Of a stretch of DNA of 64,000 nucleotides, positions 58,776 to 63,437 are shown one piece after another. The first letter of the stretch is position 1. Each line of letters opens with the position of its first letter. This DNA comes from Escherichia coli (lineage in GTDB: Bacteria > Pseudomonadota > Gammaproteobacteria > Enterobacterales > Enterobacteriaceae): assembly GCF_045037415.1 (NCBI RefSeq), contig NZ_CP173438.1; one strand, given 5' to 3'. The translations under genes were made by a program, and so were the position numbers. The notes beneath the pieces are model-generated. The model searched no databases. It saw only the letters and a program-made list of their open reading frames with translations, and had not been told where the DNA came from.

Positions 58776-61451
58776 TTACTTCAACATATTACGAATGACA
58801 TAATGCAAAATGCCGTCGTTCTGGTAGTAGGTCAACTCCGTCGCGGTGTCGATACGACAATGGCAGGGTACGACTTCCTGGCTACCATCCGCGCGCGTAA
58901 GCGTCACCGGAACCGTCGCGCCGGGTTGTAGATTTTGCAGATCACCAATATCAATCTTCTCTTCCCCGGTAAGCTCTAACGTTTTACGCGTCACACCTTG
59001 TGGAAATTCCAGCGGCAGGATGCCCATGCCTATTAAATTCGAACGGTGAATTCGTTCAAACGATTCGGCAATCACAACACGAATACCAAGCAGACGCGGA
59101 CCTTTTGCCGCCCAGTCACGGCTGGAGCCTGATCCATACTCTTTCCCGGCAATCACCGCCAGCGGCGTTTGCTCCTGCTTATAGCGCATTGCGGCATCAT
59201 AAATAGAGACGACATCGCTGTCAGGTAAATGGCGCGTCATCCCCCCTTCAACGCCAGGCACCATTTCATTACGGATGCGAATATTGGCGAAGGTGCCGCG
59301 CATCATCACTTCATGGTTACCACGCCGCGAACCATAGGAGTTAAAGTCTTTCCGCTCAACACCCCGACCTTGTAGATATCGACCCGCCGGGCTGTCGGGC
59401 TTAATACTGCCCGCCGGAGAGATATGGTCAGTGGTGACTGAATCCCCCAGCATTGCGAGGATCCGCGCACCGTGAATATCTTCCACAGGTGCTGGTGTTG
59501 CCTGCATTTCATCAAAGAAAGGCGATAAGCGAATATAGGTTGAATCCTCCTGCCAACCGTAGGTATCGGATCGTGTGACGTTAATTTCCTTCCACTCGGC
59601 TGTGCCTTCAAAAACTTCTGCGTACTCTTTGCGGAACATTTCTGTGGAGACTTGGTCTACCGCACGGGCAATTTCTTGTGCCGATGGCCAGATATCTTTC
59701 AGAAATACCGGCTCGCCTTTGCGATCATGGCCGATAGGCTCAGAAGCCAGATTGATATTCATATTTCCCGCCAGCGCATAGGCAACCACCAGCGGCGGCG
59801 AGGCCAGCCAGTTGGTTTTAACCAGCGGATGGATACGGCCTTCAAAGTTACGGTTGCCGGACAGCACTGCACCGACGGTTAAATCGCCTTTTTTGATTGC
59901 CGTTTCGATAGGATCGGGCAACGGTCCCGAGTTACCAATACAGGTGGTACAACCGTATCCCACAAGGTTAAATCCCAGTTCATCGAGATACGGTGTCAGT
60001 TTCGCTTTTGCCAGATAATCAGAAACGACTTTCGAACCCGGTGCCAGCGACGCTTTGACCCATGGTTGCCGCTTGAGGCCCAGAGTTACGGCTTTTTTCG
60101 CCAGCAAGCCTGCGGCCATCAGCACACTTGGGTTAGAGGTGTTGGTGCACGACGTTATCGCAGCAATGACCACAGCGCCATCAGGTAACTGATACTGATG
60201 TCCGTTCATAACATAATCGACCGGCAGGCGATCTTTATGCGTGGCATTCACTTCCAGTTCGCTACTGGCAGCAAATGCTTTTGGTACATCGGGCAGTGCA
60301 ACGCGATCCTGCGGGCGTTTTGGCCCTGCCAGGCTCGCTTCAACGTCATTCATATCCAGTTCTAACACACTGGTAAAAATTGGTTCATCGCCCGGATTAC
60401 GCCACATGCCCTGCGCTTTGGCATATTTTTCGACCAACTCGACCTGATCTTCACTGCGCCCGCTTAAACGCATGTAATCGAGGGTGACAGCATCGATTGG
60501 GAAGAAGCCACAGGTGGCACCATATTCTGGCGACATATTGGCAATGGTGGCGCGATCCGCCAGCGGTAGTGAATCCAGCCCATCACCATAAAATTCGACG
60601 AATTTCCCCACCACGCCATGTTTGCGCAACATTTGGGTAACAGTGAGAACCAGGTCTGTGGCGGTAATACCTTCACGTAATTTTCCGGTAAGTTTAAAGC
60701 CCACTACGTCCGGGATAAGCATGGAAACCGGCTGGCCTAACATTGCGGCTTCTGCTTCGATGCCACCAACGCCCCACCCCAGCACGCCAAGGCCGTTGAT
60801 CATGGTGGTGTGCGAGTCAGTACCAACGAGTGTATCCGGATAAGCAATCCATTCACCGTCCTGCAATTCGCTCCACACTGCTTTGCCGAGATATTCGAGG
60901 TTAACCTGATGGCAAATGCCTGTGCCTGGCGGCACGACGCTAAACCGACTGAACGCCTGCTTTCCCCATTTCAGGAACACATAACGTTCGTGGTTGCGCT
61001 CCATTTCCAGGCGTACGTTTTCTTCAAATGCCTCATCATCACCAAAACGATCGACGGTCACCGAGTGGTCAATGACCAGGTCGACCGGTGAGAGCGGATT
61101 AACCTTTGCAGTATCGCCGCCGAGGCGTTTAACCGCTTCGCGCATTGCCGCCAGATCAACAACGGCAGGTACGCCGGTAAAGTCCTGCATCAGCACTCTT
61201 GCCGGGCGGTAGGCAATTTCACGGTCAGCATGGGCATTTTTCAGCCATCCCGCCAGCGCGTGGATATCCTCTTCGGTAACCGATTTACCATCCCGCCAGC
61301 GCAGCAGGTTTTCGAGCAAAACTTTGAATGACTTGGGTAGACGGGTGATATCGCCCAGTGATTTGGCAGCAAGCGGCAAGCTGTAGTAGTGGTAAGTTTT
61401 ATCTTTGGCCTGCAACGTGTCCTTACTGGCTTCTCGTAGGGTTGACGACAT
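58776..61451 (-). CDS. acnA: Aconitate hydratase A
   Basis: 891-aa ORF; recognised sequence; aconitase family. Confidence 0.95.
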
Positions 61452-61600
61452 AGCTCCTCCTTAATGACAGGGTTGCGAAGCCCTGATTCTCTTCAGGGTG
61501 AATATTAAAGATAACACAAACATCGCGTAACGATTTGATAACAACCCAAATTGATAAAAGAGGAGAAACCTTGAGGCAAAGCAAACAGCGGGATCAGGGA

Positions 61601-61696
61601 TCAGTGAGTAATGATCCAGAGGAGTTCGGCCCAGAAGAGCATCGACAGAGAAAATGCGCCCATCCAGGACCAATATTTCATATTTGTGTTGATCAT
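61601..61696 (-). CDS. Candidate 31-aa small hydrophobic protein (sORF) in the acnA upstream region
   Basis: Hand translation MINTNMKYWSWMGAFSLSMLFWAELLWIITH; AAGGG SD-like element about 8 nt upstream; below the ORF-track length cutoff. Confidence 0.3.
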   Translation of the reverse strand: MINTNMKYWSWMGAFSLSMLFWAELLWIITH

Positions 61697-61809
61697 AGGC
61701 TACACCCTTAACGGTTATTACTTTGTGTTGAGATAACTCAACCTGTTATTGCTGCGGTGTATTAAAAGCCCTGTAATTCATTAAAAATGGGTAATAAGAA
61801 TGATGATAA

Positions 61810-61977
61810 TTATTGTTTCGGCTGATCATCTTCAGCAAACAGTTCTATAAAGGCTTGTTGCTGCGATGTTAGTTGCCAGTCGTCTGGAATAACGACGGAA
61901 CATTCCCGTTTTGCTTCTGGTTCATTGTCACTATGCTGACATAATGGTGACGACTCCAGTTGCTCCTGACCGACCAT
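61810..61977 (-). CDS. yciX: Small acidic protein (YciX-like)
   Basis: ORF 61810..61998; start placed at MVGQEQLESS, whose ATG overlaps the stop of the upstream small ORF (TAACCATGG) giving 55 aa; name from memory. Confidence 0.45.
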   Translation of the reverse strand: MVGQEQLESSPLCQHSDNEPEAKRECSVVIPDDWQLTSQQQAFIELFAEDDQPKQ

Positions 61978-61979
61978 GG

Positions 61980-62120
61980 TTATCCCCACAATTTCCAAAT
62001 AAGCAGTGCGACAACCACCCAGAAAAGTGCAGAACCAAGAAAAACCGCCAGCCAGGCTTTACGTTTTAATTCAGGATTGCGGCGGGGTTCCTGATTTCCA
62101 GAAGGCATTGCTAACCTCAT
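61980..62120 (-). CDS. ymiA: Small membrane protein (YmiA-like), translationally coupled to the downstream small gene
   Basis: Hand translation MRLAMPSGNQEPRRNPELKRKAWLAVFLGSALFWVVVALLIWKLWG (46 aa; alternative start at the second Met preceded by GAGG); one TM helix; name from memory. Confidence 0.4.
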   Translation of the reverse strand: MRLAMPSGNQEPRRNPELKRKAWLAVFLGSALFWVVVALLIWKLWG

Positions 62121-62438
62121 ATAATCGCCATCACTTATCAGCAAGACGTTGAACGATTGGTGTAATTAATCATACGATGAGACAAATCCTAAAGAAACTT
62201 TAGTCAAAAATCCAGCGAATTTACGAATCGTCTCCAGTGAATAATTCAATCTTTTGACCTGAAATAGATATTTGAAAACTGGAGTTTGCGAGGTGTGTAA
62301 TTAGACACTACTTTACAGGTAATTTACCCTATAAATATGAGGGATAAAAATATTGTGCACCGGATACAAATAAGTAACAAAGGAGAATATATTCCGGCAC
62401 CTTCGCTACATAAAAGGTGCCGAAAATAACGCAAGAAA

Positions 62439-63437
<999 letters not shown>

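What the first reader, a model, noticed from the sequence alone, without database searches (positions are those of the whole stretch)
61601..62120. Three tandem small ORFs upstream of acnA, two of them translationally coupled
On the acnA strand there are a 46-aa single-TM ORF (61980-62120), a 55-aa acidic ORF (61810-61977) whose ATG overlaps the upstream stop (TAACCATGG), and a 31-aa Trp-rich hydrophobic ORF (61601-61696) with an SD-like element. The first two probably correspond to ymiA/yciX; the third is not in the supplied ORF track and is the least certain.
Basis: partly seen in the sequence, partly recalled or inferred. Interest (0 to 1): 0.35.

Follow-up and report, generated by a model that had tools for sequence, protein, structure and literature searches.

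The report
Known small genes ymiA, yciX, ymiC
The three small open reading frames upstream of acnA are the already described E. coli genes ymiA, yciX and ymiC, all real protein-coding genes, so the finding is correct but ordinary.

Summary
The window carries E. coli cysB-ymiA-yciX-ymiC-acnA on the minus strand. The least certain one, the 31-aa ORF, is YmiC. It was found by epitope tagging in 2018, later shown to localise to the membrane, and is reported to be part of a low-Mg2+/PhoQP-induced ymiA-yciX-ymiC operon. All three frames are under purifying selection (in-frame pN/pS 0.22-0.34 against 0.9-2.2 out of frame). One detail is wrong: the yciX ATG does not overlap the ymiA stop (TAA-CC-ATG). 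The 1-3 nt spacing is conserved in 16 of 16 loci, which fits translational coupling.

Side observations that I did not find in the papers I read:
- YmiA and YmiC look like tandem paralogs.
- Rfam's 'sRNA' STnc180 is the ymiC mRNA plus its terminator.
- This strain carries a 14-nt deletion that destroys that terminator.
- The annotated ymiA start codon is not conserved between genera.

Verdict: already known, low interest.

The parts
61980..62120 (-). ymiA: small single-pass membrane protein, 46 aa as annotated. An alternative start, conserved in every genus, lies at 62106-62108 and would give 42 aa (MPSG...).
   Evidence: RefSeq CDS. NF000536 93.2 bits and PF22868 120 bits. pN/pS 0.22 in frame against 1.27 and 2.21. 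The annotated ATG is replaced by ACG or GAG in 6 of 18 loci, while the codon-5 ATG is invariant. Weaver 2019 favours the MRLAMP start in E. coli. Detected by PRM mass spectrometry.
62115..62118 (-). GAGG, 6 nt upstream of the conserved ymiA ATG at 62106-62108. It lies inside codons 1-2 of the annotated 46-aa form.
   Evidence: Invariant in 18 of 18 loci.
61975..61982 (-). ymiA stop / yciX start junction TAA-CC-ATG, a 2-nt spacer with no overlap. GGGGA in the last ymiA codons is SD-like.
   Evidence: Direct reading. The spacer is 1-3 nt in 16 of 16 loci that have yciX.
61810..61977 (-). yciX: 55-aa acidic soluble protein with a conserved C-terminal block (IPxxWxLTxQQQAFIxxFxEDD) and a variable N-terminal half.
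   Evidence: RefSeq CDS. pN/pS is 0.34 for the C-terminal 26 codons and 0.71 for the N-terminal 26. The AlphaFold model is disordered except for one helix at residues 38-48. No Pfam, NCBIfam or PDB match.
61601..61696 (-). ymiC: 31-aa Trp-rich small membrane protein.
   Evidence: RefSeq CDS WP_001310756.1. NF041484 and PF23694. Identical to the tagged protein in VanOrsdel 2018. GFP fusion localises to the membrane. pN/pS 0.31 against 0.93 and 1.62.
61703..61709 (-). SD-like AAGGGTG upstream of ymiC. The part conserved across genera is GGTG(T).
   Evidence: In the Rfam STnc180 consensus structure it pairs with an upstream ACACC.
61557..61769 (-). Full-length match to Rfam RF02079 (STnc180). It comprises the ymiC leader, the ymiC ORF and the remnant of the ymiC terminator.
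   Evidence: 182.6 bits against a gathering score of 50. Matches occur in 13 of 14 non-E. coli loci with ymiC and in 0 of 3 loci without it.
61575..61600 (-). Remnant of the intrinsic terminator that follows ymiC. A 14-nt deletion relative to K-12, between 61586 and 61585, has removed the 3' arm of the hairpin.
   Evidence: Alignment to K-12. Fold energy is -4.7 kcal/mol (z 0.03) here against -17.8 (z -2.4) in K-12. The terminator scan finds the site in K-12 but not in the window.
62121..62290 (-). Strongly conserved non-coding block upstream of ymiA, presumably promoter plus 5' leader. It includes the invariant TTTAGGATTT motif.
   Evidence: Alignment of 17 loci. No convincing PhoP box.
62392..62425 (-). 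cysB terminator-like hairpin, which marks the upstream boundary of the ymiA unit.
58776..61451 (-). acnA (aconitate hydratase A), the downstream neighbour.

Best explanation
The region holds three genuine, already named protein-coding genes, ymiA, yciX and ymiC, between cysB and acnA.

Shown here or in the cited papers:
- YmiA and YmiC are small single-pass inner-membrane proteins.
- YciX is a small acidic, largely disordered soluble protein.
- All three frames are under purifying selection.
- According to published reporter and RNA-seq data, the genes are transcribed together from a promoter upstream of ymiA that is induced by low Mg2+ in a PhoQ-dependent way.

Inferred:
- yciX is translated by ribosomes that terminate at the ymiA stop and restart 2 nt downstream, helped by the GGGGA in the last ymiA codons. 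This would tie YciX output to YmiA output.
- ymiC is translated independently, about 110 nt further on, from a GGTG-type SD.
- In most Enterobacteriaceae an intrinsic terminator right after ymiC closes the unit before the acnA promoter.

The biochemical role of the three proteins is not known. My best guess is that YmiA and YmiC, as apparent paralogs with the same predicted topology, modulate a larger membrane protein during Mg2+ limitation, as MgrB and MgtS do.
For: Identity:
- The coordinates match RefSeq features exactly.
- Curated HMM scores are well above their cutoffs.
- The YmiC sequence is identical to the one in VanOrsdel 2018.

Coding status:
- pN/pS in frame against the two other frames is 0.31 vs 0.93/1.62 for YmiC, 0.22 vs 1.27/2.21 for YmiA, and 0.34 vs 1.22/1.72 for the YciX C-terminus.
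- Variation is highest at the third codon position, and no in-frame stops occur.

Expression and localisation:
- Tagging and ribosome profiling.
- GFP-YmiA and GFP-YmiC localise to the cell periphery.
- YmiA is quantified by PRM at about 1,000-3,000 copies per cell.

Operon and regulation:
- The reporter upstream of ymiA is PhoQ-dependent, and the region immediately upstream of ymiC has negligible activity.

Coupling:
- The stop-to-ATG gap is 1-3 nt in 16 of 16 loci.

Terminator after ymiC:
- A hairpin plus U-run is present in 13 of 16 loci.
Against: - No function is known. Single deletions of ymiA or ymiC gave no phenotype, and only YmiA overexpression slowed growth.
- I found no convincing PhoP box upstream of ymiA. 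There are only 3-mismatch matches, at near-chance density, so the PhoQP dependence may be indirect.
- Translational coupling is inferred from spacing alone.
- The cluster is dispensable in evolution. It is absent from E. albertii, ymiC is absent from two Citrobacter loci, and yciX is absent from Salmonella and Superficieibacter.
Confidence: 0.93

Rival explanations
1. The 31-aa ORF is incidental. On this view the region is a non-coding RNA (the Rfam sRNA STnc180) or simply the acnA 5' leader, and it is conserved for RNA-level reasons.
For: A full-length Rfam STnc180 match covers the ORF at 182.6 bits. The RNA was recovered with Hfq in Salmonella.
Against: - The conservation pattern is codon-like and frame-specific.
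- The peptide motif KYWSW-GAFS-S-LFW is kept while synonymous sites vary.
- The protein has been tagged and localised.
- The authors who reported STnc180 saw only 500-2000 nt species on Northern blots and concluded it was a processed mRNA.
Confidence: 0.03
2. ymiC works mainly as a regulatory upstream ORF of acnA. On this view the act of translating it controls termination or read-through into acnA, and the peptide is secondary.
For: - Adams et al. 2021 list ymiC-acnA among candidate uORF-dependent regulators, with an RNA 3' end at K-12 1335835.
- ymiC ends 5-15 nt before the terminator hairpin in most genera, close enough for a terminating ribosome to interfere with it.
- From my own recollection, not verified here, Cunningham et al. 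1997 mapped a distal acnA promoter about 400 nt upstream.
Against: - The peptide sequence itself is under purifying selection and inserts into the membrane, unlike typical leader peptides.
- The mapped 3' end lies 4 nt inside acnA, about 170 nt from ymiC, and was scored as not Rho-dependent.
- acnA keeps its own conserved proximal promoter region even in E. albertii, which lacks ymiC.
- Citrobacter has acnA without ymiC.
Confidence: 0.15
3. The YmiA product conserved across genera is the 42-aa form starting at MPSG, not the 46-aa form that is annotated and that the reader adopted.
For: - The annotated ATG is ACG in 5 loci and GAG in 1 of the 18, while the ATG four codons downstream is invariant.
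- That downstream ATG is preceded by an invariant GAGG at 6-nt spacing.
- The 11 codons upstream of it have pN/pS 0.95, and their third position is the least variable.
- The NCBIfam model starts at residue 5.
Against: - Start-site ribosome profiling in E. coli K-12 was read as 'likely initiates with MRLAMP'.
- Every locus that lacks that ATG has another in-frame ATG 7 codons further upstream, so N-terminal extensions may be real and lineage-specific.
- Eleven codons give little statistical power.
Confidence: 0.3
4. The YmiA-YmiC similarity is convergent, reflecting generic transmembrane-helix grammar or a shared partner, and not common descent.
For: - The aligned region is only about 22 residues and is hydrophobic.
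- The curated NCBIfam YmiC model hits YmiA only at E = 2.5.
- The YmiC profile did not retrieve YmiA-like proteins at E <= 0.001 in the 1.84-billion-protein library.
Against: - hhalign gives 90% probability and E = 1.5e-6.
- None of 300 shuffles of the transmembrane-segment columns reaches the observed score (28.5, against a mean of 11.2, sd 2.9 and maximum 20.7).
- The two are reciprocal best non-self hits among 1,523 natural ORF segments, with large gaps to the next hit (16.6 vs 4.8 bits and 11.5 vs 4.6 bits).
- They are adjacent, on the same strand, and both were tagged as N-in.
Confidence: 0.28

Closest known systems
ymiA-yciX-ymiC of E. coli K-12 (b4522, b4523 and ymiC; Hemm 2008, VanOrsdel 2018, Weaver 2019, Vellappan 2025)
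   Same: Same locus and same order between cysB and acnA. The YmiC protein is identical (WP_001310756.1), and YmiA and YciX are 96% identical to K-12.
   Different: This strain differs from K-12 by a 14-nt deletion that removes half of the terminator hairpin after ymiC, plus a few substitutions.
Rfam RF02079, 'Enterobacterial sRNA STnc180' (Sittka et al. 2008)
   Same: Full-length, high-scoring match on the same strand.
   Different: The family consensus contains the ymiC ORF, and its 3' hairpin is the ymiC terminator. The original authors saw only 500-2000 nt transcripts. It is better described as an mRNA segment than as an sRNA.
PhoQP-induced small membrane proteins MgrB and MgtS
   Same: Small single-pass inner-membrane proteins induced by low Mg2+ in a PhoQ-dependent way.
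   Different: No partner or phenotype is known for YmiA or YmiC, there is no sequence similarity to MgrB or MgtS, and I found no canonical PhoP box.
Translationally coupled small-gene pairs such as mgtS-mgtT
   Same: The stop and the next start lie within a few nucleotides, and the SD-like sequence lies inside the upstream ORF.
   Different: mgtS-mgtT overlap out of frame, whereas ymiA and yciX are separated by 1-3 nt. Coupling has not been tested.

Membership tests
YmiA family (NCBIfam NF000536, Pfam PF22868) | HMM score above the curated cutoff | tested here: met
   93.2 bits against a cutoff of 30, and 120 bits against 27.
YmiA family (NCBIfam NF000536, Pfam PF22868) | Position between cysB and acnA, with one hydrophobic helix preceded by a basic segment | tested here: met
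   Synteny holds in 18 loci. Kyte-Doolittle window of 2.54 at residues 24-42, with KRK directly before it.
YmiC family (NCBIfam NF041484, Pfam PF23694) | HMM score above the curated cutoff, and identity to the experimentally validated protein | tested here: met
   66.3 bits against 42, and 87.5 bits against 27. The 31-aa sequence is identical to the one in VanOrsdel 2018.
YmiC family (NCBIfam NF041484, Pfam PF23694) | Frame conserved as coding across genera | tested here: met
   pN/pS 0.31 in frame against 0.93 and 1.62. No stops in 16 sequences.
YciX | Near-identity to proteins named YciX, in the same position directly after ymiA | tested here: met
   RefSeq names the identical locus 'protein YciX'. 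95-100% identity to YciX clusters. No curated HMM exists for this protein.
Rfam RF02079 STnc180 (sRNA) | Covariance-model score above the gathering score | tested here: met
   182.6 bits against 50.
Rfam RF02079 STnc180 (sRNA) | A discrete small non-coding transcript | not testable with these tools
   The sequence holds a conserved coding ORF. The literature reports only 500-2000 nt species, which argues against it.
Translationally coupled gene pair | Upstream stop and downstream start within a few nucleotides on the same strand, conserved across genera | tested here: met
   Gap of 1-3 nt in 16 of 16 loci, and 2 nt in E. coli.
Translationally coupled gene pair | Downstream translation depends on upstream translation | not testable with these tools
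   Needs a premature-stop experiment.
Direct PhoP regulon member | PhoP box (T/G)GTTTA-N5-(T/G)GTTTA at the promoter | tested here: inconclusive
   Only 3-mismatch matches at 62179-62206. Window-wide there are 174 matches against about 137 expected by chance. PhoQ dependence is reported by reporter assay.
Regulatory uORF / leader peptide of acnA | The ORF lies in the acnA transcript leader, and its translation alters downstream expression | tested here: inconclusive
   A terminator separates ymiC from acnA in 13 of 16 loci but is deleted in this strain. Adams 2021 proposes it as a candidate only.

The most novel reading that the evidence does not exclude
In the minority of E. coli strains that carry the 14-nt deletion seen in this window, the terminator after ymiC is non-functional. 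In those strains the low-Mg2+/PhoQP-driven ymiA promoter would read through into acnA. That would make ymiA-yciX-ymiC-acnA one transcription unit, with ymiC as a true upstream ORF of aconitase A. It would be a lineage-specific rewiring of a TCA-cycle and oxidative-stress enzyme to Mg2+ signalling. Alongside this, YmiA and YmiC would be tandem paralogs still able to recombine, and Rfam STnc180 would be a misfiled mRNA.
Probability: 0.35. Interest if true: 0.4.

Novelty: already known. Interest (0 to 1): 0.12.

Why it matters
The finding itself adds nothing new. All three genes are named, annotated in more than 5,000 RefSeq genomes and covered by curated HMMs, and YmiA and YmiC have been studied experimentally.

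The side observations have modest practical value:
- An Rfam 'sRNA' family that is really a small-protein mRNA shows how conserved small ORFs can be misfiled as non-coding RNA.
- The apparent YmiA/YmiC paralogy suggests that single deletions may be masked by redundancy. Published single deletions had no phenotype, so a double deletion is the obvious experiment.
- The natural terminator deletion offers a ready-made test of whether Mg2+ signalling reaches acnA.

Tried and rejected
I used YmiA and YciX searches plus a profile search of the representative library instead.
- RNAalifold on a MAFFT alignment of the ymiC leader predicted no pairs, because the variable hairpin cannot be aligned by sequence. 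Single-sequence folds show a recurring outer ACACC/GGUGU stem plus an inner hairpin, but the mean z-score is only -1.0. I do not claim a validated structure.
- The PhoP-box search gave only chance-level 3-mismatch hits.
- Three literature searches for the acnA P1/P2 promoter positions found nothing usable. The distal promoter rests on my memory only.
- YciX has no PDB relative, and its model is one helix in a disordered chain. I did not run a fold search because it would be meaningless for such a model.
I supplemented these through exact YmiA sequences. Those loci are biased towards genomes that have ymiA, so absence frequencies are not population estimates.
- Rejected: the idea that the ORFs are chance ORFs, and the idea that ymiC is non-coding.

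Full report
WHAT IS THERE. On the minus strand the window reads cysB (62439-63413), a roughly 320-nt spacer, then three small ORFs, then acnA (58776-61451). A 1,001-nt query spanning the region matches 5,421 of 5,426 complete E. coli genomes. The features under the match are annotated ymiA, yciX, ymiC, acnA and cysB.

One detail is wrong. In TAACCATGG the TAA stop of ymiA and the ATG of yciX are separated by CC, so they do not overlap. Small ORFs are common by chance here, with 60 of at least 20 aa in 3.5 kb, so the ORFs alone prove nothing.

IDENTITY. YmiA matches NCBIfam NF000536 (93 bits, cutoff 30) and Pfam PF22868. YmiC matches NF041484 (66 bits, cutoff 42) and PF23694. YciX has no curated model.

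The 31-aa sequence MINTNMKYWSWMGAFSLSMLFWAELLWIITH is printed as YmiC, between yciX and acnA, in VanOrsdel et al. 2018, who validated it by chromosomal epitope tagging. Vellappan et al. (2025 preprint) report the following:
- ymiA and ymiC are among 17 small-protein genes induced by Mg2+ starvation.
- A reporter for the region upstream of ymiA is PhoQ-dependent, while the region just upstream of ymiC is inactive. From this they infer a ymiA-yciX-ymiC operon.
- GFP-YmiA and GFP-YmiC localise to the cell periphery.
- Single deletions have no phenotype.
- YmiA overexpression prolongs lag phase, and YmiC overexpression does nothing.

YmiA has also been quantified by targeted MS at about 1,000-3,000 copies per cell.

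THE CODON-LEVEL TEST. I collected the cysB-acnA interval from 18 Enterobacteriaceae loci that carry the cluster, anchoring on AcnA or on exact YmiA sequences. Besides E. coli, these cover E. fergusonii, Salmonella, Citrobacter, Enterobacter, Leclercia, Franconibacter, Scandinavium, Metakosakonia, Superficieibacter and others.

Pooled Nei-Gojobori ratios, in frame against the two shifted frames:

| Region | In frame | Shifted frames | Note |
|---|---|---|---|
| YmiC core, 24 codons | 0.31 | 0.93 / 1.62 | no stops in 16 of 16 |
| YmiA, 42 codons | 0.22 | 1.27 / 2.21 | |
| YciX C-terminal, 26 codons | 0.34 | 1.22 / 1.72 | |
| YciX N-terminal half | 0.71 | | |

In each case the third codon position varies most.

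A profile of YmiC finds only 18 representative clusters in 1.84 billion proteins. Nearly all are 27-33 aa and carry KYWSW, so the family is narrow.

Distribution:
- Rahnella, Yersinia, Photorhabdus, Providencia and Acerihabitans have none of the three genes.
- E. albertii has lost the whole cluster but keeps flanking motifs.
- Two Citrobacter loci lack ymiC.
- Salmonella and Superficieibacter lack yciX.

COUPLING AND STARTS. The ymiA stop and the yciX ATG are 1-3 nt apart in all 16 loci that have yciX, and the last ymiA codons (TGG GGN) supply a G-rich SD-like run. This is what termination-reinitiation coupling looks like, but it remains an inference.

For ymiA itself, the annotated ATG (46 aa) is ACG in five loci and GAG in one. 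The ATG four codons downstream is invariant and sits 6 nt after an invariant GAGG. The 11 upstream codons have pN/pS 0.95, with the third position least variable. Comparative data therefore point to a 42-aa core product. Start-site profiling in K-12 was nevertheless read as favouring MRLAMP, the 46-aa form, so I leave this open.

(a) Rfam RF02079, 'sRNA STnc180', matches 61557-61769 full length at 183 bits.
- Its consensus contains the ymiC ORF, and its 3' hairpin is the terminator after ymiC.
- It is found in 13 of 14 non-E. coli loci with ymiC and in none of 3 without.
- The original authors saw only 500-2000 nt bands and called it a processed mRNA.

(b) That terminator, a GC hairpin plus U-run starting 5-15 nt after the ymiC stop, is present in 13 of 16 loci including K-12.
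- In this window a 14-nt deletion removes its 3' arm. The fold energy falls from -17.8 to -4.7 kcal/mol, and the scan finds no terminator between ymiC and acnA.
- The allele is a minority one, roughly 12-19% of complete E. coli genomes.
- The predicted, untested consequence is read-through from the ymiA promoter into acnA.

(c) YmiA and YmiC align in register over about 22 residues (K-x3-W-x3-F-x2-S-x-LFW).
- hhalign gives 90% probability and E = 1.5e-6.
- None of 300 composition-preserving shuffles of the transmembrane columns reaches the observed score.
- Each is the other's best non-self hit among 1,523 natural ORF segments of the window, with a wide gap to the next hit.
- Sequence-to-profile detection is weak, at E = 2.5.
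- I rate tandem paralogy at about 70%. The main paper on these proteins does not mention it.
- Natural reciprocal recombinants exist. One E. coli assembly has ymiA-yciX-[ymiC::ymiA]-yciX-ymiC, and others have a single [ymiA::ymiC] fusion next to acnA. Both join at the shared CCTGG Trp codon.

(d) About 170 nt upstream of ymiA is more conserved than parts of the coding sequence, yet it holds no convincing PhoP box.

(e) YciX is predicted to be disordered except for one confident helix in the conserved C-terminal block.

MECHANISM AND RIVALS. The best-supported account is a small stress-induced operon with these parts:
- a promoter and leader upstream of ymiA;
- YmiA and YciX made in a coupled way;
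- YmiC made from its own weak SD, which the Rfam structure pairs with an upstream ACACC (only weakly supported by my folds);
- a terminator that closes the unit.

The idea that ymiC is mainly a regulatory uORF for acnA (Adams et al.) is not excluded. It fits poorly with the selection on the peptide, its membrane insertion, and acnA's own conserved proximal promoter. I give it about 15%. It becomes more plausible in strains like this one, where the terminator is gone. A purely non-coding reading is effectively refuted.

VERDICT. Interest is low. The side observations (paralogy, the misfiled Rfam family, the terminator deletion, the non-conserved ymiA start) are minor and testable.

Noticed in passing
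window 61557-61769 (-): Rfam 'sRNA' family STnc180 (RF02079) matches full length at 183 bits and contains the ymiC ORF plus its terminator. It co-occurs with ymiC in 13 of 14 other loci and in 0 of 3 loci that lack ymiC. The family looks like a misfiled small-protein mRNA.
   Followed up: yes
window 61575-61600 (-); junction between 61586 and 61585: A 14-nt deletion relative to K-12 removes the 3' arm of the intrinsic terminator after ymiC. The terminator is intact in K-12 and in most genera. The allele is present in roughly 12-19% of complete E. coli genomes. The predicted consequence is read-through into acnA.
   Followed up: partly
window 61601-61696 and 61980-62120 (-): YmiA and YmiC appear to be tandem paralogs. 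hhalign gives 90% probability and E = 1.5e-6, none of 300 shuffles reaches the score, and the two are reciprocal best hits among 1,523 natural ORF segments.
   Followed up: yes
L092 1589-2484; L093 2001-2120: Natural E. coli recombinants between ymiA and ymiC at a shared CCTGG. L092 carries a tandem duplication with a ymiC::ymiA chimera. L093 carries the reciprocal deletion, leaving a single ymiA::ymiC fusion next to acnA.
   Followed up: partly
window 62106-62120 (-): The annotated ymiA ATG (46 aa) is ACG or GAG in 6 of 18 loci. The ATG four codons downstream is invariant and has an invariant GAGG 6 nt upstream, so the product conserved across genera is 42 aa. K-12 start-site profiling nevertheless favours the 46-aa start.
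   Followed up: partly
window 62121-62290 (-): A block of about 170 nt upstream of ymiA is strongly conserved across genera (for example an invariant TTTAGGATTT). It contains no convincing PhoP box, although PhoQ dependence has been reported. It could be a promoter with transcription-factor sites or a structured leader.
   Followed up: partly
window 61697-61769 (-): The ymiC leader has a conserved AATACACC-CAGCAATA motif, then a hairpin whose sequence differs between genera, then GGTGT before the ATG. An outer ACACC/GGUGU stem would sequester the SD. Single-sequence fold z-scores are weak (mean -1.0).
   Followed up: partly
L004 2241-2501; L003 and L007 about 2215-2500; L083 1662-1848: Lineage-specific losses. 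E. albertii lacks ymiA, yciX and ymiC but retains the upstream motif and a terminator. Two Citrobacter loci lack ymiC. Salmonella and Superficieibacter lack yciX.
   Followed up: partly
window 61468-61485 (-): A conserved hairpin (CAGGGCTTCGCAACCCTG) lies directly before the acnA SD. Adams et al. mapped an RNA 3' end 4 nt into acnA just after it and scored it as not Rho-dependent.
   Followed up: no
records H11, H12, H30: Some E. coli genomes carry IS1 insertions in the cysB-acnA interval. In one (H30) ymiA and yciX are no longer annotated.
   Followed up: no
window 61506-61522 (-): A 2-mismatch match to the PhoP-box pattern (TGTTTGTGTTATCTTTA) lies in the conserved region about 55-70 nt upstream of the acnA ATG. 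Matches at this stringency are common by chance in the window.
   Followed up: no
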